A stretch of 39,587 nt of DNA, from NCBI GenBank assembly GCA_040754615.1, contig JBFMBZ010000051.1:1-39587 (forward strand), written 5' to 3'. A model generated the notes under the pieces. That model was not told the origin of the DNA and did no database searches. It saw only the letters and a program-made list of their open reading frames with translations. The position numbers and the translations under genes are program-made. This document shows, one piece after another, positions 3,844 to 22,758 of the stretch. The stretch's first letter is position 1, and the number at the start of each line of letters is the position of its first letter. The stretch is from Candidatus Omnitrophota bacterium. GTDB lineage: Bacteria; Omnitrophota; Gorgyraeia; Gygaellales; Profunditerraquicolaceae.

Positions 3844-4281
3844 ATGTTTTACGGAGAATACTTTCATACCATAGACCGAAAAGGAAGGCTGATTATGCCT
3901 GCGAAATTCCGCGAGGTATCAAAGGCGAATTTCATTGAGCGTTTTTTTGTAACTCGCGGATTAGACCAGTGCCTTTTTATGTTTTCAGAGGAAGAATGGC
4001 GCAATCAGGAAGCAAAGCTTAAGGCCATATCTTTTACGAAACAGCAGGGAAGGATATTTAACCGCCTCTATTTTTCCGGAGCGGCGGAAGTCATCCCCGA
4101 TAAACAGGGCAGGCTCCTGCTTCCCCCATACCTGAAAGATTATGCCCTGATAAAAAGGGAAGTAGTTATTGTGGGAGTTTCTAACCGTATTGAAATCTGG
4201 TGCAAAGAGAAGTGGCAGGAATTCTATTCGAATTCGCGCCAGTCATTTGAAGAGATAGCAGAGAAGTTGATGGATTCATAA
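3844..4281 (+). CDS. mraZ: Division/cell-wall cluster transcriptional repressor MraZ
   Basis: MFYGEY..TIDRKGRL and a second DKQGRL repeat; GVSNRIEIW. Confidence 0.97.
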   Translation: MFYGEYFHTIDRKGRLIMPAKFREVSKANFIERFFVTRGLDQCLFMFSEEEWRNQEAKLKAISFTKQQGRIFNRLYFSGAAEVIPDKQGRLLLPPYLKDYALIKREVVIVGVSNRIEIWCKEKWQEFYSNSRQSFEEIAEKLMDS

Positions 4282-8832: not shown

Positions 8833-10199
8833 AAGCAACTTCCGGGAAGTTAATATCTGCAAATTGTAATGCAGAAATCCGGGGGATTTCTATTGACTCC
8901 CGGACAATAAAGCCAAAAGAGGCCTTCCTGGCGATTAAGGGAAATAATTTCGACGGCCATAATTTTATTGATGAGGCGCTAAAGAGGGGGGCCTCGCTTT
9001 TAATTACAAAACCACAAGGCCGCAAGGCCACCTGCCTATCCGGCAGGCGGGCAAAGCCACAAGCCAAAATTCCGGTTATAACAGTGGATGATACTGTAAA
9101 GGCCCTGGGTGATATTGCCCGATTTTATCGGCAGAGATTGGATACCCCGGTAATTGCCGTTACCGGAAGCAACGGTAAGACTACTACCAAAGAAATGATT
9201 GCCTGGGTGCTCCAAGCTAAGTTCGGGGTGCTTAAAAATGAAGGGACAAAAAATAACAATATAGGCCTGCCTATGGCCCTTTTGAACCCGAATAAGGACC
9301 ATGATATCGCGGTGCTTGAAATAGGGACAAACCATCCGGGAGAGGTGGCAAACCTTGCCAGCATATGCCAGCCGAATATAGGCGTAATCACAAATATCGG
9401 GCCTGCGCACCTCGAATATTTCAAAAGCCTGAAGAACGTATTCGCTGAAAAATATTCTCTCATAGGGCACCTGAAAGGGCCGCGCATTGCCGTATTGAAT
9501 GCCGATGACCCCTTTCTTAAGAAAAAAATATGCCAAAAAACCAAAAGGGCCGTTATCTTTGGTTTTGGCGTAAAAGAAAAAAGCGACTTTTCCGCTACGC
9601 AGGCAAAGTTTTTAAGCAGGCAGCTGCGCTTTCGGGTAAACAAAGCGGGCGGATTCAGGCTGAAATCACCGGGCCGTTTCTATATTTACAATTGCCTGAT
9701 TGCCGTAGCGATTGGCCGTATCTTCGGAATGGGTTATGATGAAATCGCCAAACGCCTCGCATCCTTTAAATTTCCCTCAGGAAGATTAAACTTTTTTGCA
9801 GCCGGCAGGATAAATTTCATTGACGACACTTATAATTCCAATCCCCTTTCTTTAGGGAAGGCCTTAGAGACGCTGCGCTGCCTTAAGTCGGCAGGAAATA
9901 AGATATTTGTGATGGGCGACATGATGGAGCTGGGGGAGGGCAAGGAGGATTTTCACCGGCAGGCAGCTAAGGAGATTGCCAGTTCCTGCGATAAGTTTAT
10001 TGCTGTCGGCTCTTTATCCAGGCTCGCCGCCGAAGAGTCCTTGAGGCTTGGTTTTGATGCCGCAAATATTTTTACCTGCGAAACCATAAAGGAAGCAAAG
10101 GATATTTTGTTTAATAAGCTTTGCCCGGGCCGGGCGGATATCGTCCTGGTTAAAGGCTCCCGGGCCATGAAAATGGAAGAGGTATTCAATAAGCCTTAA
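8808..10199 (+). CDS. murF: UDP-MurNAc-tripeptide:D-Ala-D-Ala ligase
   Basis: ISIDSR, AVTGSNGKTTTKE, NNNIGLP, DDTYNSNP and LVKGSR motifs. Confidence 0.96.
   Translation: MFKISELLKATSGKLISANCNAEIRGISIDSRTIKPKEAFLAIKGNNFDGHNFIDEALKRGASLLITKPQGRKATCLSGRRAKPQAKIPVITVDDTVKALGDIARFYRQRLDTPVIAVTGSNGKTTTKEMIAWVLQAKFGVLKNEGTKNNNIGLPMALLNPNKDHDIAVLEIGTNHPGEVANLASICQPNIGVITNIGPAHLEYFKSLKNVFAEKYSLIGHLKGPRIAVLNADDPFLKKKICQKTKRAVIFGFGVKEKSDFSATQAKFLSRQLRFRVNKAGGFRLKSPGRFYIYNCLIAVAIGRIFGMGYDEIAKRLASFKFPSGRLNFFAAGRINFIDDTYNSNPLSLGKALETLRCLKSAGNKIFVMGDMMELGEGKEDFHRQAAKEIASSCDKFIAVGSLSRLAAEESLRLGFDAANIFTCETIKEAKDILFNKLCPGRADIVLVKGSRAMKMEEVFNKP
9003..9063 (+). repeat. 8-bp tandem repeat (GCCACAAG-like) with nested 21-nt palindromic insert in murF
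   Basis: ATTACAAA ACCACAAG GCCGCAAG GCCAC[CTGCCTATCCGGCAGGCGGGC]AAA GCCACAAG; stem CCTGCC/GGCAGG at 9031-9047. Confidence 0.8.
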
Positions 10200-10207
10200 A
10201 TAAACCG

Positions 10208-11296
10208 ATGCTGTATCATCTCTTATATCCCCTGCATTCCACCATTTCCGCATTAAATATATTCCGTTACATCACGTTTCGTTCCGCCATGGCTGCCTTG
10301 ACTGCTTTTCTGGTAAGCCTTATCCTGGGGCCTTATGTCATAAGAAAGTTAAAAAGCTTAAAAGTAGGGGAAAATATCAGAAAAGAAGACAGCGTCCGGC
10401 TCCATCAGTTGCACAGCAGTAAACAGGATACGCCGACAATGGGGGGGATACTGATATTATTTGCGGTTATTTTCTCTACCCTCCTCTGGTCGGATATATT
10501 TAACAAGTACATAAGAGTGGTTTTATTCAGCACTCTATGGCTCGGTTTGACCGGGTTTTTAGATGACTACCTGAAGCAGGTGAAAAAGAAATCAAAGGGC
10601 CTTACGGCTTCGGCAAAGCTCATCAGCCAGATTGCGCTGGGGTTAATATTGGGGATTTATTTGTTCCTCCAGCCGGAAAACAATATTAAGCTTGACATCC
10701 CTTTCTTAAAGAGTACTGCCTTTAACCTGGACGGGTTTTATATCTTATTCGTCATCATGGTAATCGCCGGTTCATCGAACGCCGTTAATCTTACGGACGG
10801 CCTTGACGGCCTGGCAATAGGGATAGTGGTAATGGTGGCTATTGCGTTCAGCTTGCTTTGTTACGTTTCCGGAAATTTGAACTTCAGTAACTATCTTTTA
10901 ATCCCGTATATTAAAGGAAGCGGAGAATTGACGGTTTTTTGCGCAAGTATCCTGGGAGCCGGATTAGGCTTTCTCTGGTTCAATTGTTTTCCTGCTACAA
11001 TTTTCATGGGAGACGTCGGCTCTCTTGCCCTGGGAGGCGCAATCGGAACCGTAGCCTTGTTGATAAAAAAAGAACTCCTCCTGGTCATAGTGGGAGGTAT
11101 TTTTGTTTTAGAGGCATTATCCGTGATCTTGCAGGTAGGAAGCTTTCGTTTATTCAAAAAACGCGTTTTCAAGATTGCCCCCTTACACCATCATTTCCAG
11201 TTTTTGAATTGGCCGGAAAACAAGGTCATAGTAAGATTCTGGATTATTGCCAGCCTCCTGGCGCTGCTTACTTTGGTTACTCTTAAAGTCAGGTAG
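10208..11296 (+). CDS. mraY: Phospho-MurNAc-pentapeptide transferase
   Basis: TPTMGG, GFLDD, NAVNLTDGLDGLA, FMGDVGS and APLHHHF motifs. Confidence 0.97.
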   Translation: MLYHLLYPLHSTISALNIFRYITFRSAMAALTAFLVSLILGPYVIRKLKSLKVGENIRKEDSVRLHQLHSSKQDTPTMGGILILFAVIFSTLLWSDIFNKYIRVVLFSTLWLGLTGFLDDYLKQVKKKSKGLTASAKLISQIALGLILGIYLFLQPENNIKLDIPFLKSTAFNLDGFYILFVIMVIAGSSNAVNLTDGLDGLAIGIVVMVAIAFSLLCYVSGNLNFSNYLLIPYIKGSGELTVFCASILGAGLGFLWFNCFPATIFMGDVGSLALGGAIGTVALLIKKELLLVIVGGIFVLEALSVILQVGSFRLFKKRVFKIAPLHHHFQFLNWPENKVIVRFWIIASLLALLTLVTLKVR

Positions 11297-11324
11297 GATT
11301 ATCGGTACATATACCAGCTTTATT

Positions 11325-12599
11325 ATGCGTAACAGGGAATTTTTTAAGAATAAGAAAGTTACAGTCATCGGCCTTGCCCGTTCAGGCTCCTCTTGCGTAA
11401 ATCTGCTTCATGAACTCGGCGCCGAGGTAAGCGTAAGCGATGCGGCGCGTAATCCCTCTACGGTTGAAAATTCGCTTGGGATTAAATCCAAAGAAATCAA
11501 AGTGGAATTGGGAGGCCATACCCCTTCTTTTATTAAAGGAAGAGACCTGGTTGTCCTTTCTCCGGGCGTTGCCTTTGATGCTCCTCCGGTTACCTGGGCA
11601 AAAGATTACGGCATACCATTAATAGGGGAAATCGAGCTAAGCTGGATCTTATGCCCGGCTACAATTATTGCCGTAACGGGCTCTTGCGGCAAGACTACCG
11701 TCACTACGCTCCTCGGGAGGGCGCTTGAGGCAGCCGGAAAAAAGGCGTTTGTCTGCGGGAATATCGGGAAGCCGTTTTCTCAGGAAGTAAGCAAGATGCA
11801 GGAGGGGGATTTTGTTTGCCTTGAGGTCAGCTCATTTCAGTTAGAGGCCATACAGGACTTTAAGCCTAAGGCAGCCCTTATACTTAATATTTCCCCAAAC
11901 CATCTTGACAGGTACAAAAATATGCAGGAATATATAGACGCAAAGAAGCGCATATTTATGAATCAGGATAATTCTGATTTCCTGGTTTTAAATAAAGAAG
12001 ACCCGTGCGTATCAAAATTTGCCCAAGAAACAAAGGCGCGCGTACTTTATTTTAAAAGCGAAAAAGGGTTGAATCCCAATCAAGCAGCCGTTATTTCGGC
12101 GGTCACAGCTCTGGGCATTGAGCGAGCCTTTGCCCAGGAAGCCTTTAAAAACTTCACCGGCATTGAGCACCGCCTGGAGTTTGCCGGAAGGGTAAATAAC
12201 ATAAAATTTATCAATGATTCAAAAGCGACTACGGTAGATTCCTGCCTTTGGGCCCTGAGGAATGTCAGTGAGCCGGTCGTCCTTATCGCCGGAGGCAAGG
12301 ATAAAGGGGTTGATTATAGCGCTATTCTTGCTGCAGCCAAAGGGAAGATAAGGGAAGTGGTCTTGATTGGCCAGGCACGGGAAAAGATAAGGCAGGCGTT
12401 AAAAGGCAGCCTCCCTGTTCAAGAGGCTCCCACTTTAGAAGAGGCAGTAAAAATTGCCTACCGTAATTCCAGGCCGGGTGACTGTGTTTTGCTTTCTCCG
12501 ATGTGTTCCAGCTTTGACATGTTTTCAAATTACGAGGAGAGAGGGGAGTGTTTTAAGAGGGCGGTAGGCGAGTTGATGAGGGATACAAATGACCCGTAA
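11325..12599 (+). CDS. murD: UDP-MurNAc-L-Ala:D-Glu ligase
   Basis: GLARSG, VLSPG, TGSCGKTT, LEVSSFQL, NDSKATT and SPMCSSFD motifs. Start moved to ATG 11325 because the track start overlaps mraY. Confidence 0.93.
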   Translation: MRNREFFKNKKVTVIGLARSGSSCVNLLHELGAEVSVSDAARNPSTVENSLGIKSKEIKVELGGHTPSFIKGRDLVVLSPGVAFDAPPVTWAKDYGIPLIGEIELSWILCPATIIAVTGSCGKTTVTTLLGRALEAAGKKAFVCGNIGKPFSQEVSKMQEGDFVCLEVSSFQLEAIQDFKPKAALILNISPNHLDRYKNMQEYIDAKKRIFMNQDNSDFLVLNKEDPCVSKFAQETKARVLYFKSEKGLNPNQAAVISAVTALGIERAFAQEAFKNFTGIEHRLEFAGRVNNIKFINDSKATTVDSCLWALRNVSEPVVLIAGGKDKGVDYSAILAAAKGKIREVVLIGQAREKIRQALKGSLPVQEAPTLEEAVKIAYRNSRPGDCVLLSPMCSSFDMFSNYEERGECFKRAVGELMRDTNDP

Positions 12600-13683
12600 T
12601 ATAAGAATAAACTTGTTAGTAACGGCTTCATTCCTGATCTGCATAGGTATAGTCTGGATATATAGCGCCTCCAGTATTTATGCGCTGGAGAAATACAACG
12701 ACAGCCTCTTTTTCCTTAAAAGGCATTTGTGTTTTTTGATAATCGGAGTTATCCTTACCTTCATTGTGATGAGCATTGATTATAGAACCTTAAAGAAGTT
12801 CTCAAAGCCCCTGCTTATATTTTCTTTGTTTTTATTGGTGCTGGTCCTTGTGCCCGGCCTCGGCAGGGAGGTTTCAGGAGCGCGCCGGTGGTTCAGGTTT
12901 AAATTCCTCAGTTTTCAGCCTTCGGAGCTGGCAAGCCTTGCAGTTATCGTTTATGCCGCGGATTTTATCAGCCGTAACAGCAATGTGATGAAGCAGTTTC
13001 TAAGAGGGTTTGTCCCCGTGATTTGCGTCTTGGGGGTAAGCAGCCTGTTTATACTTTTACAGCCGGATTTGGGCACTACCCTTGCTCTGGGCGTAGTGGT
13101 GATGGTTATGCTGTTTGTAGCCGGATGCCGCAGGCTCCATCTTTTATCCCTGATATTCTCCAGCATCCCGCTACTTTTGGTTTTGATCTTAAGCGTTCCA
13201 TACAGGAGGATGCGCATCCTTGCTTTTTTAAACCCCTGGCTTGACCCGAAGGGGAGCGGTTTCCAGATTATACAGTCACAGGTTGCCCTGGGCTCAGGGG
13301 GAATATTCGGCACGGGGTTAGGCAATTCAAAACAAAAGTTATTTTACCTGCCCGCAGCGCATACGGATTTTATTTTTTCGATTATAGGAGAGGAAGTCGG
13401 GCTCTTAGGTACCCTGGGGGTGATAATTTTATTTATCTTTTTAGTGCAGCAGGGGATAAAGGTCGTAAAAAGCGCTCCGGATAAATTCGGGTATTTTCTT
13501 TCCCTGGGGCTGGTTACCATGATTTCGCTTAAGGCGGTAATCAATATCGGGGTCTCTTGCGGGCTCTTCCCCACAAAGGGCCTGCCCCTTCCATTTATTA
13601 GTTATGGCGGGTCATCGCTTATTTTCGATATGGTCAGCATTGGCTTAATTATGAATGTCGCCCGCACCGGAGAATATCCATGA
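12589..13683 (+). CDS. ftsW: SEDS peptidoglycan glycosyltransferase FtsW
   Basis: GARRW, FQPSE, LQPDLG, YLPAAHTDFIF and LPFISYGGSS motifs; dcw position. Confidence 0.96.
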   Translation: MTRNIRINLLVTASFLICIGIVWIYSASSIYALEKYNDSLFFLKRHLCFLIIGVILTFIVMSIDYRTLKKFSKPLLIFSLFLLVLVLVPGLGREVSGARRWFRFKFLSFQPSELASLAVIVYAADFISRNSNVMKQFLRGFVPVICVLGVSSLFILLQPDLGTTLALGVVVMVMLFVAGCRRLHLLSLIFSSIPLLLVLILSVPYRRMRILAFLNPWLDPKGSGFQIIQSQVALGSGGIFGTGLGNSKQKLFYLPAAHTDFIFSIIGEEVGLLGTLGVIILFIFLVQQGIKVVKSAPDKFGYFLSLGLVTMISLKAVINIGVSCGLFPTKGLPLPFISYGGSSLIFDMVSIGLIMNVARTGEYP

Positions 13684-14762
13684 GGGTCCTGATAGCTACC
13701 GGTTCGAGCGGCGGCCATATCTTTCCGGCGCTTAGCCTCTTTGAGGCCTTAAAAAGCAAGGATGCTAAGATTGAGCTTAGGCTGGTACTTCCCCAAAGGG
13801 CAAAACTGAGCTATGCTTTATTTCCTGATTTTAAAGAGATAAGGTATATTTCAACCGCGCCCCTTAAGCTCAAGGCGGATACTCAGAATCTCTTTGCCTT
13901 GTTCAGATTTTTGAAAGGCGCATTGCAAAGCCTGAATATCCTGCTGGAATTTAATCCGGATGTAGTAGTAGGTTTCGGCACCCTTGATTGCCTGGCGATA
14001 ATATTCTTCTCATGGCTCTTCAGGATAAAGACATTAATCCATGAGCAAAATGTGCTCCCCGGCCGTGCGAATATGTTTTTATCCAGGTTCTGCGATAAGA
14101 TTGCGGTTTCCTTCCCGGAAACAAAAAAGTATTTTAATGTCAGCCCGGAAAAAATAGTCCATACCGGAAACCCTCTGCGCAGGGAATTGCAGGGTATTGA
14201 CAGGCAGAGCGCCTTAAGGTTCTTCGGGCTAAATGAGGGCCTATTTACTATTCTGGTTATGGGCGGCAGCCAGGGGAGCGCCAGCATAAACAGGATTATC
14301 CCGCAGGCGCTTTCAATGTTGGAAGCACATGCGCACTTACAGGTAATCCATTTAACCGGCCAGAAGGATTACGATAAAACAATGAACTTTTACTCCGGAT
14401 TAAAAATTACGGTCAGCCTCTCCACATTTTTAGAGAAGATGCATTATGCCTATTCTGCCTCTGATATCGCGGTATCCAGGGCTGGAGCGACTACTATTGC
14501 AGAGTTAATGCACTTTAGGGTCCCCTCAATATTAATCCCTTACCCTTTTGCTTATAAGCATCAATCCCTCAACGCCACGGTCCTTAAAGAGCATAACGCT
14601 GCCGTGATTATCGAGGAAGAAAGGCTAAAACCGGAGAATTTCAAGGAAACGCTGGAGTCATTCATAAATAATCCCAATAAACTGCAGCAGATGCGCCAGG
14701 CACTGGATGGGCTTTATCTTGAAGGCGCAGCCACGCGCCTGGTAAACGAGGTTCTCGGGTGA
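13680..14762 (+). CDS. murG: Lipid II GlcNAc transferase
   Basis: GSSGGHIFPA, HEQN, TGNPLR, GGSQG, SRAGATT and HQSLNA motifs. Confidence 0.96.
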   Translation: MRVLIATGSSGGHIFPALSLFEALKSKDAKIELRLVLPQRAKLSYALFPDFKEIRYISTAPLKLKADTQNLFALFRFLKGALQSLNILLEFNPDVVVGFGTLDCLAIIFFSWLFRIKTLIHEQNVLPGRANMFLSRFCDKIAVSFPETKKYFNVSPEKIVHTGNPLRRELQGIDRQSALRFFGLNEGLFTILVMGGSQGSASINRIIPQALSMLEAHAHLQVIHLTGQKDYDKTMNFYSGLKITVSLSTFLEKMHYAYSASDIAVSRAGATTIAELMHFRVPSILIPYPFAYKHQSLNATVLKEHNAAVIIEEERLKPENFKETLESFINNPNKLQQMRQALDGLYLEGAATRLVNEVLG

Positions 14763-16117
14763 AGAAGCATTACTATTTTATCGGAATCGGAGGCATAGGG
14801 ATGAGCGGCATTGCCAAACTACTCTTACGTAGCGGACAAAAGGTGAGCGGCTCGGACCTTAAGGAGAGCGAAATTACCCGGGAATTAAAGCTTTTGGGGG
14901 CAAATATCTTTATCGGCCATAAAGCGCAGAATTTAAACAGCGTGGATTGCATAGTTTATTCTTCGGCAATAAGCGAAGATAACCCCGAGATGATTGAAGC
15001 AAAAAAACGCCATTTGCCTATCCTTAAGCGCGCCGAGGCGCTGGCAGGGCTGATGCAGGAGAAAACCGTGATTACTATTGCCGGCAGCCACGGAAAGACT
15101 ACTACCGCTTCTTTAGCGTCTCTTCTTCTGTTAGAGGCAGGCTTATCGCCTACTGTGGCCGTAGGGGGGATCCTGCAGAATATCGATACCAACGCTTCTT
15201 TAGGCAAAGGCGATTTTTTCGTAGCCGAAGCAGATGAATCTGACGGCTCCTTCCTGTATTATCAGCCCAGGTATTCCATAGTTACCAATATTGACTTCGA
15301 GCATTTGGATTTTTACAAAGAATTTTCAAATGAGCTGGCGGCGTTCAAAGAGTTCATTAATAAAACAGAAGACGGCGGTTGCATCTTTGCCTGTAAGGAC
15401 GATACAAATCTGCAAAGCATTTTAAAAGGATGCGACAAAAGGCATCTTTTTTTCGGTCTGGATGCGTCTGCGGATATATACCCTAAGGATATCGTAATAA
15501 ACGGCCTCACTTCTGAATTTATATGCTGCTTGCGGGATAAAGATATAGGGAGGTTCCATCTTGCTTTAGGCGGGAGGCATAATATTTCTAATTCTTTGGC
15601 GGTGATTGCCCTGGGCCTTGAGCTGGGGATAGATTTGAAGATGATCCAGGGCACACTGGCTAGCTATAAGGGGAGCCGCCGCAGGCTACAGGTAAAACAC
15701 TCCGGAGATTACATTCTCATAGATGATTATGCGCACCATCCTACGGAAATTTCTGCAACGCTCCAGGCGATAAAAAATTTAAATCCCAAGAGGATTATCG
15801 CCCTTTTTCAGCCGCATCGCTATAGCCGGACAAAATTGCTTTTGGGTGAATTCTCAAACAGCTTTGGCTTAGCCGATTACCTTATTATCACCGACATATA
15901 CCCTGCCGGGGAGAAGAATATAGAGGGCATAAGTTCCAAGAGTATATATGACAATATAAAGTTATGTTTTCCCGATAAGGAGCTTTATTGCCTGGCTAAG
16001 GAAGAGTTAGTCCCAAGGGTGCTGGGGATAATCAGGCCCGGAGACCTGGTAATCACGTTAGGCGCGGGAGATATTACAAAAGTATCCGATGAACTGGCCG
16101 AAAGATTTAAGGGATAA
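14759..16117 (+). CDS. murC: UDP-MurNAc:L-Ala ligase
   Basis: GIGGIGMSG, GSHGKTT, EADESD, DDYAHHPTEI and FQPHRYSR motifs. Confidence 0.97.
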   Translation: MKKHYYFIGIGGIGMSGIAKLLLRSGQKVSGSDLKESEITRELKLLGANIFIGHKAQNLNSVDCIVYSSAISEDNPEMIEAKKRHLPILKRAEALAGLMQEKTVITIAGSHGKTTTASLASLLLLEAGLSPTVAVGGILQNIDTNASLGKGDFFVAEADESDGSFLYYQPRYSIVTNIDFEHLDFYKEFSNELAAFKEFINKTEDGGCIFACKDDTNLQSILKGCDKRHLFFGLDASADIYPKDIVINGLTSEFICCLRDKDIGRFHLALGGRHNISNSLAVIALGLELGIDLKMIQGTLASYKGSRRRLQVKHSGDYILIDDYAHHPTEISATLQAIKNLNPKRIIALFQPHRYSRTKLLLGEFSNSFGLADYLIITDIYPAGEKNIEGISSKSIYDNIKLCFPDKELYCLAKEELVPRVLGIIRPGDLVITLGAGDITKVSDELAERFKG

Positions 16118-16970
16118 AGTAAAAGAAGGAGAAGCGTTAAAAGATAAGACTACCTTTAGGATAGGAGGCTGTGCCCGTTTCTTCGCTGAGCCGGAAAACG
16201 GACGCGAGCTCAAGGATTTGTTAATTTGTGCCAGGAAAAATAATCTTCCGGTTTTTATCCTGGGTAGCGGCAGTAACATTCTGGTCAATGATAAAGGGGT
16301 CAGGGGACTGGTCCTGAGGTTGAATTCTCCCTTTTTTAGAAAAATAAAGTGCCAAAGAAATTTTATTGAATCAGCATCCGGAGTCAAAATAAAAGAACTG
16401 ATACTGAAATCTTATAATAATGGTTTGTCAGGTTTTGAGTTTTTGGCCGGTATACCGGGCACAACCGCAGGGGCGCTTGCCATGAATGCCGGCTCCTGGG
16501 GCAGGAGCATAGGGGAATTGGCAGAAGAAGTAAAGGTGATGGACTATTCCGGCAGGGAGAAACTTATTAAGAAAAAGGGCATTAGGTTTGGATACCGTAA
16601 TTCCAGCCTTTCTAAATACATTATTTTGGGCGCGCGTTTCAAATTAAACAAAGAAAAGAAGGCGAAGATTAAAGAAAATATCAGCGGATTCCTCGCGCGG
16701 CGTTTTCAAATGCAGGACCTATCCTTTCCTAACGCAGGCTGCATATTCAGAAATCCGCCTCAAGAGCATGCAGGCAGGTTGATAGACCTTTGTGGGTTAA
16801 AAGGAAAGAAGGCGGGAGGAGCGGTTATCTCTAGCAAGCATGGGAATTTCATCCTCAATAAAGGCCAGGCTTCTTGCTCAGATGTTTTAAGCCTGATGAA
16901 TTTGGCAAAAAAAAAGGTAAAGAAGAAATTTAATATCAGCCTTGCTCCCGAGATAAAGATATGGCGATAG
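16089..16970 (+). CDS. murB: UDP-N-acetylenolpyruvoylglucosamine reductase
   Basis: TFRIGG, GSGSNIL, GIPGT..GA..MNAG, FGYRNS, AGCIFRNP and KHGNFI motifs. Confidence 0.96.
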   Translation: MNWPKDLRDKVKEGEALKDKTTFRIGGCARFFAEPENGRELKDLLICARKNNLPVFILGSGSNILVNDKGVRGLVLRLNSPFFRKIKCQRNFIESASGVKIKELILKSYNNGLSGFEFLAGIPGTTAGALAMNAGSWGRSIGELAEEVKVMDYSGREKLIKKKGIRFGYRNSSLSKYIILGARFKLNKEKKAKIKENISGFLARRFQMQDLSFPNAGCIFRNPPQEHAGRLIDLCGLKGKKAGGAVISSKHGNFILNKGQASCSDVLSLMNLAKKKVKKKFNISLAPEIKIWR

Positions 16971-17911
16971 GGGTTAAAAATTTTGGCAAGATCGGCGTGC
17001 TGATGGGAGGGCCCTCAAGCGAGAGGGAAATTTCCCTTAAATCCGGTAAGGCGGTATTGGCTGCTTTAAAAGGCTTAAGGTTAAATGCCGTAGCTGTCGA
17101 TATAAAGACGGATAATGTCAGCAGGAATTTACGCCTGTTAGAGCCTATGGGGATCAGTTGCGCTTTTTTAGCCCTGCACGGATATTTCGGGGAAGATGGC
17201 CGGATACAGGGGCTGTTAGATGCTTTAGGGATTCCTTATACTTCCTCAGGTGTTTTGGCGAGCAGCCTCGCGATGGATAAAGTGGCTTCCCGGTTAATTT
17301 TCTCGGCAAAGGGATTAAAAGTCCCCCGGTACAAGTTAATTAACGCAAGGAGCGCTTATTCTCAAGAGGGAATCCTGGAGGGGATGAAATTCCCATTGGT
17401 CATTAAGCCGGCAACTTCGGGTTCCAGTATCGGGCTGTCTATTATTGAAGACAAAAATAAGCTGATGAAGGCGATGAAATCCGCCTCTATGCATGATAAA
17501 CGGGTAATCATCGAGGAATATATAGGGGGCAGAGAGCTGACGGTCGGTATTTTGGGGAAAAGGGCCTTACCCGTAATAGAGATTATTCCCGGCAGGAAAT
17601 TCTTTGATTTCCAAGCAAAATATCATCCGGGCCTGACGCAGTATGTGGTTCCCGCCAGATTAAATAAAAGTTTATCTGAAAAAATAAAGAAAGCCGCTTT
17701 ATCAGCGCATGAGTCTTTAAGCTGCTATGGATGCTCAAGGGTAGACATCATCCTGGATAAAGCTCAAAACCCGGTTATCCTGGAAGTAAATACCATCCCC
17801 GGCCTTACCAGTACGAGCCTGCTTCCCAAGGCTTGTAAAGCAGCAGGCATAGGTTTTGAGAAATTATGCCTTAAATTAATTGACCTGGCCTATGAAAAAG
17901 AACAAGATTGA
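16961..17911 (+). CDS. ddl: D-alanine-D-alanine ligase
   Basis: GGPSSEREIS, LHGYFGEDG, GSSIG, FDFQAKY and EVNTIPG motifs. Confidence 0.96.
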   Translation: MAIGVKNFGKIGVLMGGPSSEREISLKSGKAVLAALKGLRLNAVAVDIKTDNVSRNLRLLEPMGISCAFLALHGYFGEDGRIQGLLDALGIPYTSSGVLASSLAMDKVASRLIFSAKGLKVPRYKLINARSAYSQEGILEGMKFPLVIKPATSGSSIGLSIIEDKNKLMKAMKSASMHDKRVIIEEYIGGRELTVGILGKRALPVIEIIPGRKFFDFQAKYHPGLTQYVVPARLNKSLSEKIKKAALSAHESLSCYGCSRVDIILDKAQNPVILEVNTIPGLTSTSLLPKACKAAGIGFEKLCLKLIDLAYEKEQD

Positions 17912-18671
17912 TTCAGCGGTTAAGGCGGGTTTTGTTATTTTAACCGCCTCTTTAATTATCCTTCTCCCTTTTTTTTATATCTTTCGCCGGCTTCAGAGGT
18001 CGGAATATTTCAAAATCAAGAATATCGTGGCCAGGGGCCTGAAGGCTTCCGACCTTTCCTATCTATACGGAAGCAGTTTTTTTAATGTTGATTTGGAAAA
18101 AGAGTCAGATTACATCCGCCAGTCTTTCCCGCAGTGCAGCCAGGTCAGGCTGATAAGGGTTTTCCCCAACTGTTTATTTGCCGACTGCATAAAACGCATC
18201 CCGCAGGCAATAGTAAAACTGCAGAAATATTTTTATGTTGATAAAGAAGGAGTCCTATTTTATAATTTAGGGGCGTACCAGAGGCATGACCTGCCCATGA
18301 TTTTGGGATTGGAAAACAGAATCTCTAGCCCGAAGTCCGGGAAAAAATATAATTTAACCGAGCTGTCTCTTGCGCTGGAGATAATTGAAGAAATCAGGCG
18401 GGATAAGTTTTTAAGCGCGCACCAGATTAAGAATATAGAATTAACCAGTCCCGAGGGAGCATCCGTATTTTTGTTTCCGGATAGGGTAAGCCCTTTGAAA
18501 GAGAAGGCTGTGCTTACGGCGTTAGAGGTGAAGGTCGGCAGTGAAGACATAAAGAGTAAAATCTTTATACTCTCAGGCCTGATGGAGCAGACAAAGGTGG
18601 ATCTCTCCAGAATAAAATATATAGACTTAAGGTTTAAAGAGCCGGTAATCAAATTAAAAGATGCTAAATAA
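17892..18671 (+). CDS. ftsQ: Cell division protein FtsQ/DivIB
   Basis: Short basic N-terminus, TM, POTRA-like segment (FKIKNI..RVFPN) and C-terminal YIDLRF; lies between ddl and ftsA. ATG 17892 preferred. Confidence 0.85.
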   Translation: MKKNKIDSAVKAGFVILTASLIILLPFFYIFRRLQRSEYFKIKNIVARGLKASDLSYLYGSSFFNVDLEKESDYIRQSFPQCSQVRLIRVFPNCLFADCIKRIPQAIVKLQKYFYVDKEGVLFYNLGAYQRHDLPMILGLENRISSPKSGKKYNLTELSLALEIIEEIRRDKFLSAHQIKNIELTSPEGASVFLFPDRVSPLKEKAVLTALEVKVGSEDIKSKIFILSGLMEQTKVDLSRIKYIDLRFKEPVIKLKDAK

Positions 18672-19914
18672 TTATATTTGCGCACTGGATATCGGGTCGA
18701 GCAAACTTTGCGCTTCTCTTTTTCAATTTAAAGGGAAACGCTGCAGGGCCGCTTTTTTTGAAAGCATCCCCTTAAAAGGCGTAAGCGAAGGAGTAGTAGT
18801 TGACGCCACAGAGCTGGTGAATACAGTTACCAAGCTCATAAAAAACCTTAAATCAAGGTCCAGGATAAACGTAAAGAATATCTACGCTAATATTTCCGGC
18901 CAGGATATCTTAACAAAGCACAGCCGCTCCATCATGCCTTTGGCGGAACGGGGAAATAAGGTAATTGCCCGTTCGGATATACACAAGGTAATAGAGCAGG
19001 CGCATATCCTGGGTTCAAGCCTGGATGAGGAAATCATTCATCAGATTCCCTTAAGCTTCAATATAGATTCTAAAAGCGGTGTAACTTCCCCCTTAGGCCT
19101 GTATAGCCACAGGTTAGAAGTGGATTTATTCCTGATTTGCGCGAAATTATCCGCCTTCCAGAGTCTATGCCGGGCAATAGGCCAGTCCGGATGCGAATTA
19201 AGGGGGGTATTTTTCTCAGGGTTGGCAAGCTCCCGGGCAGCTATGGATGATAACTTTAAAGAAGGCCTTAATCTTTTCTGCGATGCCGGAGCGGACATGA
19301 CCGAGCTCCTTTTATTCAAGAACGGCGTTTTAAGCGGCGTCAACATTTTGCAGATGGGAGGCAATGATTTTACGGCAAGGCTCGCAGAGGAATTGAAGAT
19401 TCCTTTTGAACTGGCGGAGGATATCAAGAAGACCTATGGGTTAGTCGGCGATTCCGCACAGTTAACAGACGACAAAGAAATATTGATTAAAAAGAGCGAC
19501 CTCTACAAACCGATAAAACAGAAACTGGTCGCTGGCATAGTGACTCAACAGGCTAAGGAATTTTGCGCAAAATTAAAAGAGCAGATCGCTAAGGTAGCGG
19601 CTTCCTACGAAGTCAATAACCTGATAATTGCCGGTCGGTCGGTTCTGCTTGAAGGATTTATAGAAACATTGGAGAACGAACTGAATATCAGGGTAAAATT
19701 GGCAAGGCTTTCTAATAAAAACATACCTCTTTTAGCAAAAGAAGACAACGCCCTATCCGGCCAGCGGTACCTGGCCTATTTAACATCCATCGGGGTAATT
19801 TGTGAAGTTATGGATGGTGACTCCGGACTGATAGAGGCAAAAGCTAATCCTTCCGGGAATATCTTCGTTTCTACGTTCAACAAAATTAAAGAAGTCTATC
19901 AGGAATACTTTTAA
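18661..19914 (+). CDS. ftsA: Cell division protein FtsA (divergent)
   Basis: ALDIGSSK phosphate-1 motif, 1C domain (IIHQIP..F.ID...PLG...RLEVD), AEDIK and a C-terminal amphipathic helix; follows ftsQ. Confidence 0.9.
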   Translation: MLNNYICALDIGSSKLCASLFQFKGKRCRAAFFESIPLKGVSEGVVVDATELVNTVTKLIKNLKSRSRINVKNIYANISGQDILTKHSRSIMPLAERGNKVIARSDIHKVIEQAHILGSSLDEEIIHQIPLSFNIDSKSGVTSPLGLYSHRLEVDLFLICAKLSAFQSLCRAIGQSGCELRGVFFSGLASSRAAMDDNFKEGLNLFCDAGADMTELLLFKNGVLSGVNILQMGGNDFTARLAEELKIPFELAEDIKKTYGLVGDSAQLTDDKEILIKKSDLYKPIKQKLVAGIVTQQAKEFCAKLKEQIAKVAASYEVNNLIIAGRSVLLEGFIETLENELNIRVKLARLSNKNIPLLAKEDNALSGQRYLAYLTSIGVICEVMDGDSGLIEAKANPSGNIFVSTFNKIKEVYQEYF

Positions 19915-19924
19915 GCCCAAGAGC

Positions 19925-21142
19925 ATGCATAGGAAAAGAAAGCATTTTATTTGTTTAATCTTATTCTTTGCGGGAAGCATTGCCTTTTGTTTAAGCAATG
20001 CAAATGCAGAAACAAAAATTATTTACTCCTCTTCGGAATTAGGGTTTGCGAACGATTCGGCTATATACGGAAAATACGTATATGTAATCGGGGACAAAGG
20101 GATGGCAATACTTGATTTTTCTAACCCGCAGGCCCCAAAAAGGATAAAGGCCTTACTTTCAAAAGAGCCTTTCCAGGATATTTACGTAGCAGGTGACTAT
20201 GCTTACGTCACCTGCGGAACCCGCCGCGCTTTTATGGGGAAATTAAAGATTTTTGACGTTTCCGCCCCTCAAAATACCTATGAAATAAAAAACAATTTGC
20301 TCCTTCCGGAGGCTCCGGTAGGGGTGTATGTGAGGGAGGGCATTGCTTATATTGCCTGTTTTGCCTCCGGGATTTTCTTGGTTGATGTGAAAAATCCCAG
20401 GTATCCACGCGTAATTTCTAATTTTAAACTTCCCCATGTTTCCAATTCAGAGATTGAGGAAAAGATGGCAGTGACGGCTAAAAGGAATCCTGAAAATTTC
20501 GTAAACAAGTTTGGAAGAAAAATGGGTTTCAATACCCTGGAAGACGGCCTTAAGTGGATTAGGCATTCTTACGGCACAAAGGCGCATGCCTGGTGGTTTA
20601 CTTTACGCTATCCGTATGTATTCCTTTGCGCAGACGCAGCAGGGCTATTTATAATTGACATTTCAGATCCGGGTAATCCCGTCCAAAAAGGGTATTTTAA
20701 TAAAAAACTGGCTAACGGGAAAGATTGTTTTTTTAATGATATAGAGGTGCATGGAAGTTATGCTTTTATTGCCCTGGATTACCTGGGCATGCTCGTCCTT
20801 GACATCTCAGATCTAGAAAACCCCAAAGAGATTACGCATGTAAACCCGTGGGAGGGTGCAAAGTGGCTGACTAGCGCTGGCCATATGATACAGATTGAAA
20901 TAAAGGGCAATTTAGCTTACCTTACTGCGGGTAAGGACGGGCTCTACGTATATGATATAAGTAACCCAAAAGCGCCCGGCTTAGTTACGAAATTCCCCGG
21001 CTCGTATAGCGCGCAGAAAGGATGCGCCTGGGGGGTATTTACAGAAGGAGATTATATCAGCGTAGGATATAGCAGTAATTGCCCCCCTTCCAGACAAAGA
21101 AGCCCTCTGGGAGGCGCTTTTGAGATATTTGTAGAAAGATAA
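19925..21142 (+). CDS. Secreted LVIVD-repeat beta-propeller protein
   Basis: Signal peptide ending in ANA, then six clear repeats of YAY(V/I)....G(L/M).(I/V).D(I/V)S.P..P and a seventh partial blade. Confidence 0.8.
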   Translation: MHRKRKHFICLILFFAGSIAFCLSNANAETKIIYSSSELGFANDSAIYGKYVYVIGDKGMAILDFSNPQAPKRIKALLSKEPFQDIYVAGDYAYVTCGTRRAFMGKLKIFDVSAPQNTYEIKNNLLLPEAPVGVYVREGIAYIACFASGIFLVDVKNPRYPRVISNFKLPHVSNSEIEEKMAVTAKRNPENFVNKFGRKMGFNTLEDGLKWIRHSYGTKAHAWWFTLRYPYVFLCADAAGLFIIDISDPGNPVQKGYFNKKLANGKDCFFNDIEVHGSYAFIALDYLGMLVLDISDLENPKEITHVNPWEGAKWLTSAGHMIQIEIKGNLAYLTAGKDGLYVYDISNPKAPGLVTKFPGSYSAQKGCAWGVFTEGDYISVGYSSNCPPSRQRSPLGGAFEIFVER

Positions 21143-21168
21143 CCTCCCGCTCGCCTTCAAGCCTTCGC

Positions 21169-21196
21169 TTGACCTCAACATTTTCTTGTGTATAAT
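21169..21196 (+). promoter_or_regulatory. Sigma70-type promoter for the yggS-proC-... segment
   Basis: TTGACC (21169-21174), 16-bp spacer, TATAAT (21191-21196). Confidence 0.7.
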
Positions 21197-21211
21197 ATAT
21201 TAGTCTTAATT

Positions 21212-21907
21212 ATGATTAAAGATAACATTTTAAGAATAAAAGAGCGGATATCTTTTGTCTGCTCTAAAATAGGCCGGGATCCGGAATCAATAATCATTAT
21301 CGCGGCGGCAAAGGCCAGGCCCTTAAATCAGATACAAGATGCTGTCGCAGCAGGGGTAAGTGATATCGGAGAAAACAGGGTACAGGAGGCAGTTGTTAAA
21401 TATAATAACCTGTCGCCTGCGGCCTATTGTTTACGTCCTATACACTGGCACATGATCGGCCACTTGCAGTCCAATAAGGTAAAAGAGGCAGTCAGGATAT
21501 TTGATTTGATTCAATCCGTAGACAGCCTGCATTTAGCAGAAGGAATCAATAAAGAGGCGCAAAAAATAAATAAAATCCAGGATATTCTGGTAGAAGTAAA
21601 TACTTCGGGTGAATCTTCTAAGTTCGGTTTAAACCCCCAGGAGGCCTTTGAAACTATTAAGCAAATTTTAGAGTTCAAAAATATCAGCGTTAAGGGGTTG
21701 ATGACTATTGCCCCAATTGCAGACAATCCGGATAAGGCCCGGCCCTATTTTAAGAAGTTAAGAAATTTAATGGAAGAAATTAACGTAAGGCAAAATACGC
21801 AAGGCGCAATTCGCATTTTATCTATGGGCATGTCTGATGATTTTGAGGCGGCGATAGAAGAGGGGGCGAATATGGTAAGATTGGGCAGGGCGATTTTTGA
21901 AAATTAA
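21212..21907 (+). CDS. yggS: PLP homeostasis protein (YggS/PROSC family)
   Basis: GENRVQE, WHMIGHLQSNK, GLMTIAP, LSMGMSDD and VRLGRAIF motifs. Start moved to ATG 21212 because the track GTG lies within the promoter. Confidence 0.95.
   Translation: MIKDNILRIKERISFVCSKIGRDPESIIIIAAAKARPLNQIQDAVAAGVSDIGENRVQEAVVKYNNLSPAAYCLRPIHWHMIGHLQSNKVKEAVRIFDLIQSVDSLHLAEGINKEAQKINKIQDILVEVNTSGESSKFGLNPQEAFETIKQILEFKNISVKGLMTIAPIADNPDKARPYFKKLRNLMEEINVRQNTQGAIRILSMGMSDDFEAAIEEGANMVRLGRAIFEN
21782..21816 (+). repeat. Degenerate 7-bp tandem repeat inside yggS
   Basis: AACGTAA GGCAAAA TACGCAA GGCGCAA TTCGCAT; related to the ribF unit. Confidence 0.55.
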
Positions 21908-21912
21908 TAACT

Positions 21913-22758
21913 ATGTTTAATTTCTTAAGAAAAAGGATTGGAATCATCGGTTACGGGAATATGGGGTTAGCAATAGCCAGTCGCCTCAGCGGTAAGTATT
22001 ACGTTGTTGTATTTGATAAAGACAAGAGCAAAACACAGAATTTAGTGAACATTCAGGTTGCAAGCAGCCTTTTAGATTTAGTGAAAAAAGCAGATGTCGT
22101 TATCTTAGCGGTTAAACCGCAAGACCTTGGTGCCGTTTTAAATGAAATCAAGCATGACCTTAAAACTAAGTTAATAATCTCTATCGCTGCGGGGATAACT
22201 ACGGGGTATATTGAGAATATTTTAGGTGACTGCAAAGTTATTAGGGCAATGCCTAATTTGCCGGTTAGGATTGGAAAAGGAATGATTTGTTTTTCAAAAG
22301 GGAGGTTCGCTGAACAAAAAGACTTAACATTTTCCTTGAGGCTTTTTAAAAATTTAGGAAGAACAATGGAAATAGAAGAAAAATTGATGAATGATGTGAC
22401 TGCTGCATCTGGTAGCGGACCGGCTTTTTTCTATGATTTTATTGAAAAGCAGAAGAACCTTGGCAATACTAAACTCGGGAACATCAAAAAAGAATTTGAT
22501 AAGATTATGGTAGACTATCTACTTTCTCATAAATGCGGATGGACGCCTCAAGATGCAAGGGTAGTTGTAACTACTACAAGCGCTGCAAGCCTCGCCTTAC
22601 TCAAGATCGAGAATGTCGATCCCAAAGACTTGATAATTCAAATTGCCTCTCCAGGAGGAACTACGCAGGCAGGGTTAGATAAATTAGATAACAAGGGAAC
22701 GCTCACAGATGCAATGGATGCTGCGATTAAGCGCGCTGAAGAACTATCTAAGAATTGA
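21913..22758 (+). CDS. proC: Pyrroline-5-carboxylate reductase
   Basis: IGYGNMG, LAVKPQ, ISIAAG, RAMPN, SGSGPA and ASPGGTT motifs; conserved yggS-proC linkage. Confidence 0.92.
   Translation: MFNFLRKRIGIIGYGNMGLAIASRLSGKYYVVVFDKDKSKTQNLVNIQVASSLLDLVKKADVVILAVKPQDLGAVLNEIKHDLKTKLIISIAAGITTGYIENILGDCKVIRAMPNLPVRIGKGMICFSKGRFAEQKDLTFSLRLFKNLGRTMEIEEKLMNDVTAASGSGPAFFYDFIEKQKNLGNTKLGNIKKEFDKIMVDYLLSHKCGWTPQDARVVVTTTSAASLALLKIENVDPKDLIIQIASPGGTTQAGLDKLDNKGTLTDAMDAAIKRAEELSKN

What the first reader, a model, noticed from the sequence alone, without database searches (positions are those of the whole stretch)
18661..21211. ftsZ missing from an otherwise complete dcw cluster: candidate FtsZ-independent, FtsA-retaining division system
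Seen: mraZ through ftsQ-ftsA is intact and is followed by yggS-proC, but no tubulin-signature ORF (GGGTGTG) appears between ftsA and yggS or in any listed ORF. An unrelated gene fills that slot. Known: ftsA-ftsZ is among the most conserved adjacencies in bacteria, yggS commonly lies just downstream of ftsZ, and Chlamydiae and Planctomycetes divide without FtsZ. Inference: this organism may keep FtsA, FtsQ, FtsL, FtsW and FtsI without FtsZ, an intermediate state in FtsZ loss. The altered FtsA and MreB (separate findings) point the same way.
Basis: partly seen in the sequence, partly recalled or inferred. Interest (0 to 1): 0.8.

Follow-up and report, generated by a model that had tools for sequence, protein, structure and literature searches.

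The report
Omnitrophota: FtsA kept, FtsZ gone
This DNA comes from an Omnitrophota bacterium whose cell-division gene cluster really does lack the near-universal division protein FtsZ while keeping its usual partner FtsA, a state shared by nearly every sampled genome of the phylum and mentioned only in passing in the literature.

Summary
The window holds a complete division and cell wall (dcw) cluster, mraZ to ftsQ-ftsA. Then come a 405-aa secreted LVIVD-repeat protein, yggS and proC. No FtsZ or tubulin homologue was found in the window or in the 1.61-Mb, 90%-complete genome. None passed the FtsZ cut-off in 401 sampled genomes of the phylum (Omnitrophota by record titles). Five nearly closed genomes had no tubulin-domain match.

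FtsA is kept in at least 199 of 201 genomes, always with a conserved C-terminal amphipathic tail. MinC and ZapA were found in 0 of 101 genomes. MreB and FtsK were each found in 100 of 101.

In relatives ftsA abuts yggS or proC, so ftsZ was cleanly deleted long ago. The LVIVD gene is a private insertion in this genome, not a replacement.

The pattern is already in print as one figure legend (Pende 2021). PVC reviews contradict it. The only "Omnitrophica" genome reported with FtsZ (OLB16) now sits in another phylum.

The mechanism is inferred, not shown. I favour membrane-bound FtsA organising FtsQ/B/W/I septal wall synthesis, with MreB as helper or rival. Interest is moderate: the absence is robust but already recorded, and the mechanism is unexplored.

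The parts
3844..4281 (+). mraZ, first gene of the dcw cluster
   Evidence: PF02381 129.5 bits
4289..5194 (+). rsmH (mraW)
   Evidence: PF01795 351.8 bits
5196..5594 (+). 132-aa ORF in the ftsL position, with an N-terminal hydrophobic segment. It is an FtsL candidate by position only.
   Evidence: No Pfam or NCBIfam family; sequence read
5640..7364 (+). ftsI-type class-B penicillin-binding protein
   Evidence: PF00905 257.9 and PF03717 60.5 bits; NCBIfam class-B PBP models
7342..12599 (+). murE, murF, mraY, murD
   Evidence: NF001126 597 bits, TIGR01143 384, TIGR00445 396, TIGR01087 399, all over their cut-offs
12589..13683 (+). ftsW
   Evidence: TIGR02614 405.2 against cut-off 337.5
13680..17911 (+). 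murG, murC, murB, ddl
   Evidence: Pfam domains
17880..18671 (+). ftsQ. Its stop overlaps the ftsA start by 11 nt.
   Evidence: PF03799 28.8 bits; coordinates. In 13 of 19 close loci that hold ftsQ, the ftsQ alignment ends 7 nt past the ftsA start.
18661..19914 (+). ftsA: a divergent but full-length actin-fold protein with the 1C (SHS2) insert and a C-terminal amphipathic tail
   Evidence: TIGR01174 182.8 against 175.85; PF02491 52.3; PF14450 57.8. Aligns over residues 4-349 to solved FtsA structures. Tail analysed.
19925..21142 (+). Private insertion: a 405-aa LVIVD-repeat beta-propeller protein with a signal-like N-terminus. Not part of the division system.
   Evidence: PF08309 108.9 bits. 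Single copy in the genome. Present in 0 of 50 related ftsA loci. No orthologue in 60 relatives. Only 4 homologues at 35% identity or more in the large protein collection.
21188..21907 (+). yggS (PLP-binding protein). The likely true start is the ATG at 21212. In relatives this gene directly follows ftsA.
   Evidence: TIGR00044 194.8 against 106.25; synteny; promoter-like site at 21169-21196
21913..22758 (+). proC
   Evidence: TIGR00112 194.8 bits, just under its cut-off of 196.75; PF14748 and PF03807
31306..36467 (+). mreB, mreC, mreD (weak match), pbp2, rodA: a complete elongasome set on the same contig
   Evidence: TIGR00904 512.1 against 365.75; PF04085, PF00905/PF03717, PF01098; MreD only 16.5 bits

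Best explanation
The window is a chromosomal segment of an Omnitrophota bacterium. The phylum name is inferred from the record titles of the closest ftsA loci.

In the sampled members of this phylum the canonical ftsZ gene is gone. It was excised cleanly from between ftsA and yggS/proC in an early ancestor. The FtsZ-specific helpers MinC, ZapA and SepF are absent too, and no true MinD was found in this genome. The wall-building part of the divisome (FtsQ, FtsB, an FtsL-position ORF, FtsW, FtsI, FtsK, all Mur enzymes) and the MreBCD-PBP2-RodA set are kept. The LVIVD beta-propeller gene now lying between ftsA and yggS is a later insertion private to this genome and has no role in division. These points are shown by the calls cited below.

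Inferred mechanism (about 0.45 on its own): FtsA stays anchored to the membrane by its conserved C-terminal amphipathic tail. It polymerises there and directly organises the FtsQ/B-FtsW/I septal peptidoglycan synthase, as MreB does for RodA-PBP2. MreB may cooperate at the division site, as reported for Chlamydia.
For: FtsZ absence:
- Own genome: 0 matches to TIGR00065, PF00091 or PF13809 at E<=1. tblastn with E. coli FtsZ gave a best E of 2.1.
- Order-level relatives: 0 of 41 genomes, own genome included.
- Phylum, genomes at least 85% complete: 0 of 201 at E<=0.001. This is 0 of 182 among those at least 90% complete and at most 5% contaminated.
- Phylum, no completeness filter: 0 of 401 over the FtsZ cut-off.
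- PF00091 gave 0 of 5 at E<=1 in genomes of 1, 1, 2, 4 and 6 contigs.
- Controls matched in 13 of 14 genomes.

FtsA retention:
- 201 of 201 genomes match TIGR01174 at E<=1e-5, and 103 pass the cut-off.
- I rechecked 7 low scorers: the six with best E above 1e-20, plus G167 (2.6e-23). In 5 the top hit was MreB.
- G167 and G080 have a divergent ftsA next to ddl. G171, G181 and G190 have one beside ddl, directly after ftsQ in G171 and G181.
- G105 is unresolved. G103 (86% complete) has none.
- FtsA is therefore present in at least 199 of 201.

FtsA tail: 46 of 47 Omnitrophota FtsA end in [D/E]-Y-F. The median helical hydrophobic moment of the last 15 residues is 0.52, against 0.27 for shuffles and 0.57 for the E. 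coli tail.

Loss of FtsZ partners: MinC 0 of 101 and ZapA 0 of 101. The own genome has no SepF, ZapA or MinC, and no MinD over the cut-off.

Retained genes: MreB 100 of 101 at 366-533 bits (99 of them about 500 or more) and FtsK 100 of 101. FtsB/DivIC is in the own genome at 44.5 bits.

Synteny:
- Of 50 Omnitrophota ftsA loci, 36 have at least 700 nt downstream of ftsA.
- The first recognised downstream gene is yggS in 23 (16 start within 200 nt of the ftsA stop), proC in 4, and other genes in 9.
- LVIVD is in 0 of 50.

Framework for the mechanism: E. coli FtsA forms curvature-preferring antiparallel double filaments like MreB (Nierhaus 2022, PMC7613929, passages seen).
Against: - No imaging, expression or biochemical data exist for any part of the mechanism.
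- FtsA evolves fast here. Only 103 of 201 genomes pass the family cut-off, and some score 28-35 bits. In this genome the second phosphate motif and the adenosine motif differ from E. coli: D-A-G-A-D-M-T and G-R in place of D-I-G-G-G-T and G-G. This could mean relaxed constraint or a changed job rather than a central scaffold. Note that S. aureus FtsA, which is solved with nucleotide, also has a G-E-D-type second motif.
- MreB is far more conserved than FtsA. That fits an MreB-led division as well as it fits my reading.
- The own genome is only 90% complete.
- Two of 401 genomes carry a distant tubulin-superfamily gene.
- FtsA was not confirmed in 2 of 201 genomes.
- That ftsZ once sat between ftsA and yggS is inferred from gene order in other bacteria (recalled). 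It was not tested on sister phyla here.
Confidence: 0.85

Rival explanations
1. Division is led by MreB, as reported for Chlamydia. MreB with RodA-PBP2 and/or FtsW-FtsI and FtsK builds the septum. FtsA is an accessory or has been given another task.
For: MreB is present in 100 of 101 genomes at 366-533 bits (99 of them about 500 or more), well over the cut-off. It has an N-terminal amphipathic extension and canonical motifs in this window. FtsA is fast-evolving with altered nucleotide motifs. Most Omnitrophota cells are about 0.2 um, and V. archaeovorus cells are described as cocci (Seymour 2023, PMC10066038, passages); keeping MreB in such cells recalls Chlamydia. FtsK is in 100 of 101 genomes. 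Passages in PMC7613929 and PMC12283558 and the abstract of PMC11975371 link MreB and FtsK to chlamydial division.
Against: FtsA is kept in at least 199 of 201 small genomes (1-3.7 Mb). It keeps a conserved membrane tail and its place right after ftsQ, often overlapping it. That argues for a maintained job tied to the divisome. Chlamydiae and most Planctomycetes lost FtsA (passages). The two readings are not exclusive.
Confidence: 0.3
2. FtsZ is present but was missed, either because the genome bins are incomplete or because the protein has diverged beyond detection.
For: The own genome is 90.36% complete in 107 contigs. Two of 401 genomes hold a tubulin-superfamily protein scoring only 50-54 bits on the FtsZ model, which shows that distant relatives can exist. 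Several contigs break close after ftsA.
Against: 0 of 401 genomes pass the cut-off. 0 of 5 near-closed genomes match the tubulin domain even at E<=1. 0 of 182 high-quality genomes match. The own genome has no homologue of the distant tubulin-like protein either (tblastn best E 0.03 over 41 residues). ftsA abuts yggS with gaps of 8-172 nt in many loci. MinC and ZapA are also absent.
Confidence: 0.03
3. The gene inserted between ftsA and yggS (the LVIVD beta-propeller), or another new gene in that slot, functionally replaces FtsZ.
For: It occupies the position where ftsZ is expected and starts 10 nt after the ftsA stop.
Against: It has a signal-like N-terminus, so it is probably exported. No orthologue was found in 60 relatives. 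It is absent from 50 of 50 related ftsA loci. The genes following ftsA in other families are unrelated to each other: yggS, proC, a PilT-like ATPase, an epimerase, a permease.
Confidence: 0.01
4. Cells do not build their own constriction machinery. These very small, possibly host-dependent cells split by budding, membrane blebbing or host-assisted fission, and the kept dcw genes serve only wall maintenance.
For: Many Omnitrophota are proposed predators or parasites with cells of about 0.2 um (Seymour 2023, passages). Planctomycetes that lack FtsZ bud (passages).
Against: The full FtsQ/B/W/I/K set and FtsA are kept phylum-wide despite genome reduction. In Planctomycetes that bud, these genes erode (passages).
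Confidence: 0.1

Closest known systems
FtsZ-less division of Chlamydiota
   Same: No FtsZ. Peptidoglycan synthesis genes, FtsQ, FtsW, FtsI, FtsK and MreB are kept. Cells are small (Omnitrophota mostly about 0.2 um). The phylum belongs to or sits near the PVC group (passages in PMC5147048, PMC12283558, PMC7613929; abstract of PMC11975371).
   Different: Chlamydiae lack FtsA (Pende 2021 legend; Henriques 2025 passage). Omnitrophota keep it in at least 199 of 201 genomes, and the dcw cluster stays intact and collinear. RodZ was not tested here.
FtsZ-less division of Planctomycetota
   Same: ftsZ is lost in the whole phylum. A few species are said to keep ftsA (FEMS review 2025 and Henriques 2025, passages).
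   Different: Planctomycetes also lost ftsB, usually lost ftsA, have a fragmented dcw cluster, and in several orders lost most mur genes. Here FtsB (own genome) and the whole cluster are kept.
Canonical FtsZ-FtsA proto-ring (E. coli, B. subtilis)
   Same: The same ftsQ-ftsA gene pair. FtsA has the 1C insert and a C-terminal amphipathic membrane tail. The downstream FtsQ/B/W/I machinery is the same.
   Different: FtsA has no FtsZ to tether, and there is no MinC, ZapA or SepF. FtsA is divergent, barely over the family cut-off.
MreB elongasome (actin-like rudder for RodA-PBP2)
   Same: This is what the proposed FtsA mode would work like: a membrane-bound actin-fold filament guiding a SEDS-bPBP synthase without tubulin. 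Nierhaus 2022 proposes a shared curvature-sensing mechanism for FtsA and MreB (passage).
   Different: FtsA is not MreB. Filament formation by Omnitrophota FtsA is untested.

Membership tests
FtsA (TIGR01174) | Whole-protein score over the curated cut-off | tested here: met
   182.8 bits against 175.85
FtsA (TIGR01174) | SHS2 / 1C subdomain inserted in the actin fold | tested here: met
   PF02491 52.3 bits, residues 80-159
FtsA (TIGR01174) | C-terminal amphipathic membrane-targeting tail | tested here: met
   Hydrophobic moment 0.41 for the window protein (7.6% of shuffles reach it). Median is 0.52 across 47 Omnitrophota FtsA, 30 of 47 with 5% or fewer shuffles reaching it. 46 of 47 end [D/E]-Y-F. 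Membrane binding itself was not tested.
FtsA (TIGR01174) | Gene directly downstream of ftsQ in the dcw cluster | tested here: met
   11-nt overlap with ftsQ; the same order in related loci
FtsA (TIGR01174) | Canonical actin-fold nucleotide-binding motifs | tested here: inconclusive
   The first phosphate motif is kept. The second phosphate and adenosine motifs differ from E. coli. S. aureus FtsA shows a similar second motif.
FtsA (TIGR01174) | Binds the FtsZ C-terminal peptide through subdomain 2B (recalled from Szwedziak 2012, paper not held) | not testable with these tools
   The genome has no FtsZ. The contact residues could not be retrieved.
FtsZ-based divisome | FtsZ present | tested here: not met
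FtsZ-based divisome | FtsZ regulators and anchors (MinC, MinD, ZapA, SepF) | tested here: not met
   Own genome: none; best MinD-model hit 91 bits against cut-off 212.9. Phylum: MinC 0 of 101, ZapA 0 of 101.
Chlamydia-type FtsZ-less divisome | No FtsZ, but peptidoglycan synthesis, FtsQ/W/I/K and MreB kept | tested here: met
Chlamydia-type FtsZ-less divisome | FtsA absent | tested here: not met
   FtsA is present
Chlamydia-type FtsZ-less divisome | RodZ partner of MreB at the septum | not tested
   No search was run
LVIVD-repeat beta-propeller (PF08309) | Repeats over the Pfam gathering score | tested here: met
   108.9 bits against 20.2, 3 stretches
YggS (TIGR00044) | Score over the cut-off | tested here: met
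   194.8 against 106.25

The most novel reading that the evidence does not exclude
Omnitrophota divide with an actin-only cytoplasmic scaffold. Membrane-bound FtsA filaments, with no tubulin homologue at all, position and steer the FtsQ/B-FtsW/I septal synthase. The phylum would then be a natural ftsZ deletion, showing that FtsA can organise a divisome on its own as the divisome's counterpart of MreB.
Probability: 0.4. Interest if true: 0.8.

Novelty: new variant of a known kind. Interest (0 to 1): 0.5.

Why it matters
FtsA is understood almost entirely as the membrane tether of FtsZ. A whole phylum that has kept FtsA for a very long time without FtsZ, MinC or ZapA says FtsA has a job of its own.

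It also offers natural proteins for testing that job in vitro: membrane binding, filament formation, and contacts with FtsQ, FtsW and FtsI. It gives the least eroded FtsZ-less divisome known, sitting between the canonical machine and the chlamydial and planctomycetal ones.

It corrects statements in recent PVC reviews:
- Omnitrophota are grouped with FtsZ-bearing phyla.

The older report of FtsZ in "Omnitrophica" rests on genome OLB16, which NCBI taxonomy now places in Candidatus Hinthialibacterota.

The limits are that the gene-presence pattern is already in print and that no genetically tractable culture exists.

Tried and rejected
- **Replacement gene downstream of ftsA.** I looked for a conserved unknown gene that could replace FtsZ. 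The ORFs of 324-444 aa found there in other families are a PilT-like ATPase, an NAD-dependent epimerase and a permease, by reading of the sequences. They were not scanned against families. Rejected.
- **Mobile-element signs around the LVIVD gene.** Only short chance-level repeats were found. Promoter-like and terminator-like sites were no more frequent than in shuffles.
- **FtsE.** The best hit scored 208 bits, below the cut-off of 264.85. Inconclusive.
- **Direct search with the distant tubulin-like protein.** It gave 0 of 301 genomes, but that sample held no genome known to carry it, so the result says little.
- **Residue-level test of the FtsZ-binding surface of FtsA.** Dropped. Szwedziak 2012 is not held, and a search for a mutant name I recalled found 0 papers.
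- **Comparison of FtsA subdomains with FtsZ-bearing phyla.** Not done, because I had no handle on outgroup genomes.
- **Sequencing runs for window 17880-22758.** None was listed and no RNA holder was listed.
- **Closed or unseen sources.** Supplements of papers are closed. The presence/absence tables of Pende 2021, Henriques 2025 and Rivas-Marin 2016 may hold per-genome data that I could not see.
- **Correction to a note.** My mid-session note called window 29883-31238 murA. It is aroA.


Full report
**What is in the window**

All large ORFs lie on the + strand. Profile searches name them as follows:

| Coordinates | Gene |
|---|---|
| 3844-4281 | mraZ |
| 4289-5194 | rsmH |
| 5196-5594 | unassigned 132-aa ORF in the ftsL position |
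| 5640-7364 | class-B PBP (ftsI) |
| 7342-12599 | murE, murF, mraY, murD |
| 12589-13683 | ftsW |
| 13680-17911 | murG, murC, murB, ddl |
| 17880-18671 | ftsQ |
| 18661-19914 | ftsA |
| 19925-21142 | 405-aa LVIVD-repeat protein |
| 21188/21212-21907 | yggS |
| 21913-22758 | proC |
| 22816-29882 | MTAP, ileS, a dksA-like gene, lspA, lgt, a pseudouridine synthase, a coiled-coil membrane protein |
| 29883-31238 | aroA |
| 31306-36467 | mreB, mreC, a weak mreD, pbp2, rodA |

FtsA scores 182.8 bits on TIGR01174 (cut-off 175.85). It carries the SHS2 insert and aligns over residues 4-349 with solved FtsA structures. The protein between ftsA and yggS begins with a hydrophobic signal-like segment. It matches PF08309 at 108.9 bits.

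**Is FtsZ really missing?**

The window is a whole contig of a genome of 1,614,593 bases in 107 contigs, 90.36% complete.
- Six-frame profile searches of that genome with TIGR00065, PF00091 and PF13809 gave no match even at E<=1.
- tblastn with E. coli FtsZ, taken from an annotated K-12 record, gave nothing better than E=2.1.
- A loose tubulin-signature pattern hit two unrelated ORFs, a ParA/MinD-like protein and PstS.
- The same FtsZ profile search found FtsZ in 13 of 14 control genomes.

- 0 of 41 genomes of the same order, own genome included.
- 0 of 201 phylum genomes at least 85% complete at E<=0.001. This is 0 of 182 among those at least 90% complete and at most 5% contaminated.
- 0 of 401 phylum genomes over the FtsZ cut-off without a completeness filter.
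- 0 of 5 near-closed genomes (1, 1, 2, 4 and 6 contigs) with a tubulin-domain match at E<=1.

Incompleteness therefore cannot explain the absence.

**Which phylum**

Of the 20 closest ftsA loci in named records, 14 are titled Candidatus Omnitrophota or Omnitrophica. Four are titled Planctomycetales, one Verrucomicrobiota and one simply "bacterium". I take the phylum to be Omnitrophota. This is an inference from titles.

**What happened at the locus**

I compared 50 Omnitrophota ftsA loci: 20 close ones and the 30 best-scoring ones.
- 36 have at least 700 nt after ftsA.
- In 23 of these the first recognisable gene is yggS. In 16 it starts within 200 nt of the ftsA stop.
- In 4 it is proC. In 9 it is something else. 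By reading the sequences, these are a PilT-like ATPase, an epimerase, a permease and small ORFs.
- None of the 50 holds a relative of the LVIVD gene.

A protein search found no orthologue of the LVIVD gene in 60 relatives. The only hits were repeat-level matches of 63 bits or less inside larger proteins. In a collection of 5.8 billion proteins only four homologues reach 35-48% identity. The gene is single-copy here, with composition like its neighbours.

So ftsZ was removed cleanly, leaving ftsA next to yggS/proC. The LVIVD gene is a later insertion private to this genome. That yggS commonly follows ftsZ in other bacteria is recalled knowledge and was not tested here.

**What else is lost and kept**

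- Not found in the own genome: ZapA, SepF, MinC. The best MinD-model hit is 91 bits against a cut-off of 212.9.
- Phylum: MinC 0 of 101 and ZapA 0 of 101.
- Kept across the phylum: MreB 100 of 101, 99 of them at about 500-533 bits against a cut-off of 365.75, and FtsK 100 of 101.
- Kept in the own genome: FtsK, and an FtsB/DivIC protein at 44.5 bits.
- FtsE is undecided.

**FtsA across the phylum**

TIGR01174 matched 201 of 201 genomes at E<=1e-5, but only 103 pass the cut-off. I rechecked 7 low scorers: the six with best E above 1e-20, plus G167.
- In five of the seven the best hit is in fact MreB.
- G167 and G080 have a divergent ftsA next to ddl.
- G171, G181 and G190 have a very divergent ftsA-like gene (28-50 bits) beside ddl, directly after ftsQ in G171 and G181.
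- G105 is unresolved.
- G103 (86% complete) shows none.

FtsA is therefore present in at least 199 of 201 genomes, and it evolves much faster than MreB.

Its C-terminus is the most constant part. 46 of 47 sequences end [D/E]-Y-F. The last 15 residues have a median helical hydrophobic moment of 0.52, against 0.27 for shuffles and 0.57 for the E. coli membrane tail.

In this genome the second phosphate motif and the adenosine motif differ from E. coli. A similar second motif occurs in S. aureus FtsA, so I do not read this as loss of nucleotide binding.

The MreB in the window has canonical motifs and an amphipathic N-terminal extension.

**Literature** (passages seen with the find mode unless stated)

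- Rivas-Marin 2016 (PMC5147048) found FtsZ only in "Omnitrophica bacterium OLB16". It left open whether its absence from two other genomes was real.
- The 2017 review (PMC5945725) lists Omnitrophica among FtsZ holders.
[quoted passage not shown] This implies FtsA is kept in Omnitrophica.
- Henriques 2025 (PMC12283558) groups Omnitrophota with Verrucomicrobiota as having highly conserved dcw genes.
- Seymour 2023 (PMC10066038) does not mention FtsZ, FtsA or MreB in its main text.

NCBI taxonomy now places OLB16 in Candidatus Hinthialibacterota, which removes the one contrary case. My searches for Omnitrophota/Omnitrophica/OP3 with FtsZ or dcw found no paper that analyses an FtsA-retaining, FtsZ-less divisome. 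Supplements were closed.

**How it most likely works**

Shown: the gene content, the synteny and the conserved FtsA tail.

Inferred: FtsA binds the membrane and polymerises. Nierhaus 2022 (PMC7613929) showed for E. coli that FtsA forms curvature-preferring antiparallel double filaments like MreB, and proposed that they align septal synthesis. In a cell without FtsZ such filaments could be the only cytoplasmic organiser of FtsQ/B-FtsW/I.

The main rival is an MreB-led division as in Chlamydia. It is favoured by the extreme conservation of MreB in cells of about 0.2 um. It is weakened by the near-universal retention of FtsA in reduced genomes. The two may act together. I give the FtsA-scaffold mechanism about 0.45 and the MreB-led one about 0.3. 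The descriptive core (true, ancient, phylum-wide loss, with the slot gene incidental) gets 0.85.

**Verdict**

The absence is recorded in print but barely noticed, and it is contradicted in reviews.

New here:
- the phylum-scale counts;
- the clean ftsA-yggS junction;
- the co-loss of MinC and ZapA;
- the conserved FtsA tail;
- the resolution of the OLB16 conflict.

As a system it is a new variant of the known FtsZ-less PVC divisomes. Interest is 0.5.

Noticed in passing
L082:1318-2517 (+) and L083:1492-2775 (-), from genomes G403 and G440; not in the window: Two of 401 Omnitrophota genomes encode a 399-427-aa tubulin-superfamily protein. It has a lysine-rich N-terminal tail, a G-G-G-T-G-S-G signature, PF00091 at 45-49 bits and a TubZ-like C-domain, but only 50-54 bits on the FtsZ model. 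The large protein collection holds 768 relatives at E<=1e-5, and the best 120 are 64-100% identical. Where NCBI names them, 6 are from Omnitrophota and 15 from Planctomycetota, Phycisphaerae or Sedimentisphaerales, lineages held to lack FtsZ. The nearest solved proteins are RepX/TubZ and archaeal FtsZ at about 40 bits. The architecture differs from the FtsZl1 family of Makarova and Koonin 2010. I found no paper on it. It could matter for how some 'FtsZ-less' PVC bacteria divide.
   Followed up: partly
window 29052-29882 (+): A 276-aa protein with an N-terminal membrane segment, a long coiled coil and a small C-terminal domain, and no curated family. Relatives at E<=1e-5 occur in 125 of 151 phylum genomes, though coiled coils may inflate this. 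In at least 19 genomes compared by hand it lies 1.4-3 kb upstream of mreB on the same strand. The language-model atlas puts it in Omnitrophota-centred clusters without a Pfam family. It is a candidate partner of the MreB or division machinery.
   Followed up: partly
window 18661-19914 and related loci L001-L050: The nucleotide-binding motifs of FtsA vary widely across the phylum. The second phosphate motif and the adenosine motif are replaced in several families. Four loci (L037, L039, L040, L048) lack the conserved aspartate and glycines altogether.
   Followed up: partly
G171, G181 (family f32) and G080, G190 (family f21): loci L105, L109, L110, L112: In these families the gene in the ftsA position, after ftsQ or next to ddl, scores only 28-63 bits on the FtsA model, lower than or level with the cross-match of MreB. 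Profile-only surveys would wrongly score FtsA as absent, or count MreB as FtsA.
   Followed up: yes
several phylum genomes, table: About 11 of the roughly 150 listed ftsA matches lie within a few hundred bases of a contig end on the downstream side. Examples are in G114, G217, G216, G126, G060, G151, G210 and G174. Assemblies often break just after ftsA. The cause is unknown.
   Followed up: no
window 31306-32379 (+): MreB carries a roughly 20-residue amphipathic N-terminal extension before the first phosphate motif and is otherwise canonical.
   Followed up: no
window 21169-21196 (+): A promoter-like site matching 11 of 12 consensus positions lies just upstream of the ATG at 21212. This suggests yggS starts there with its own promoter. 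Such sites are no more frequent in the region than in shuffles.
   Followed up: no
NCBI taxonomy, taxid 1617433: 'Omnitrophica bacterium OLB16' is the genome behind the published statement that Omnitrophica have FtsZ. It is now classified as Candidatus Hinthialibacteria bacterium OLB16, in a different phylum.
   Followed up: yes
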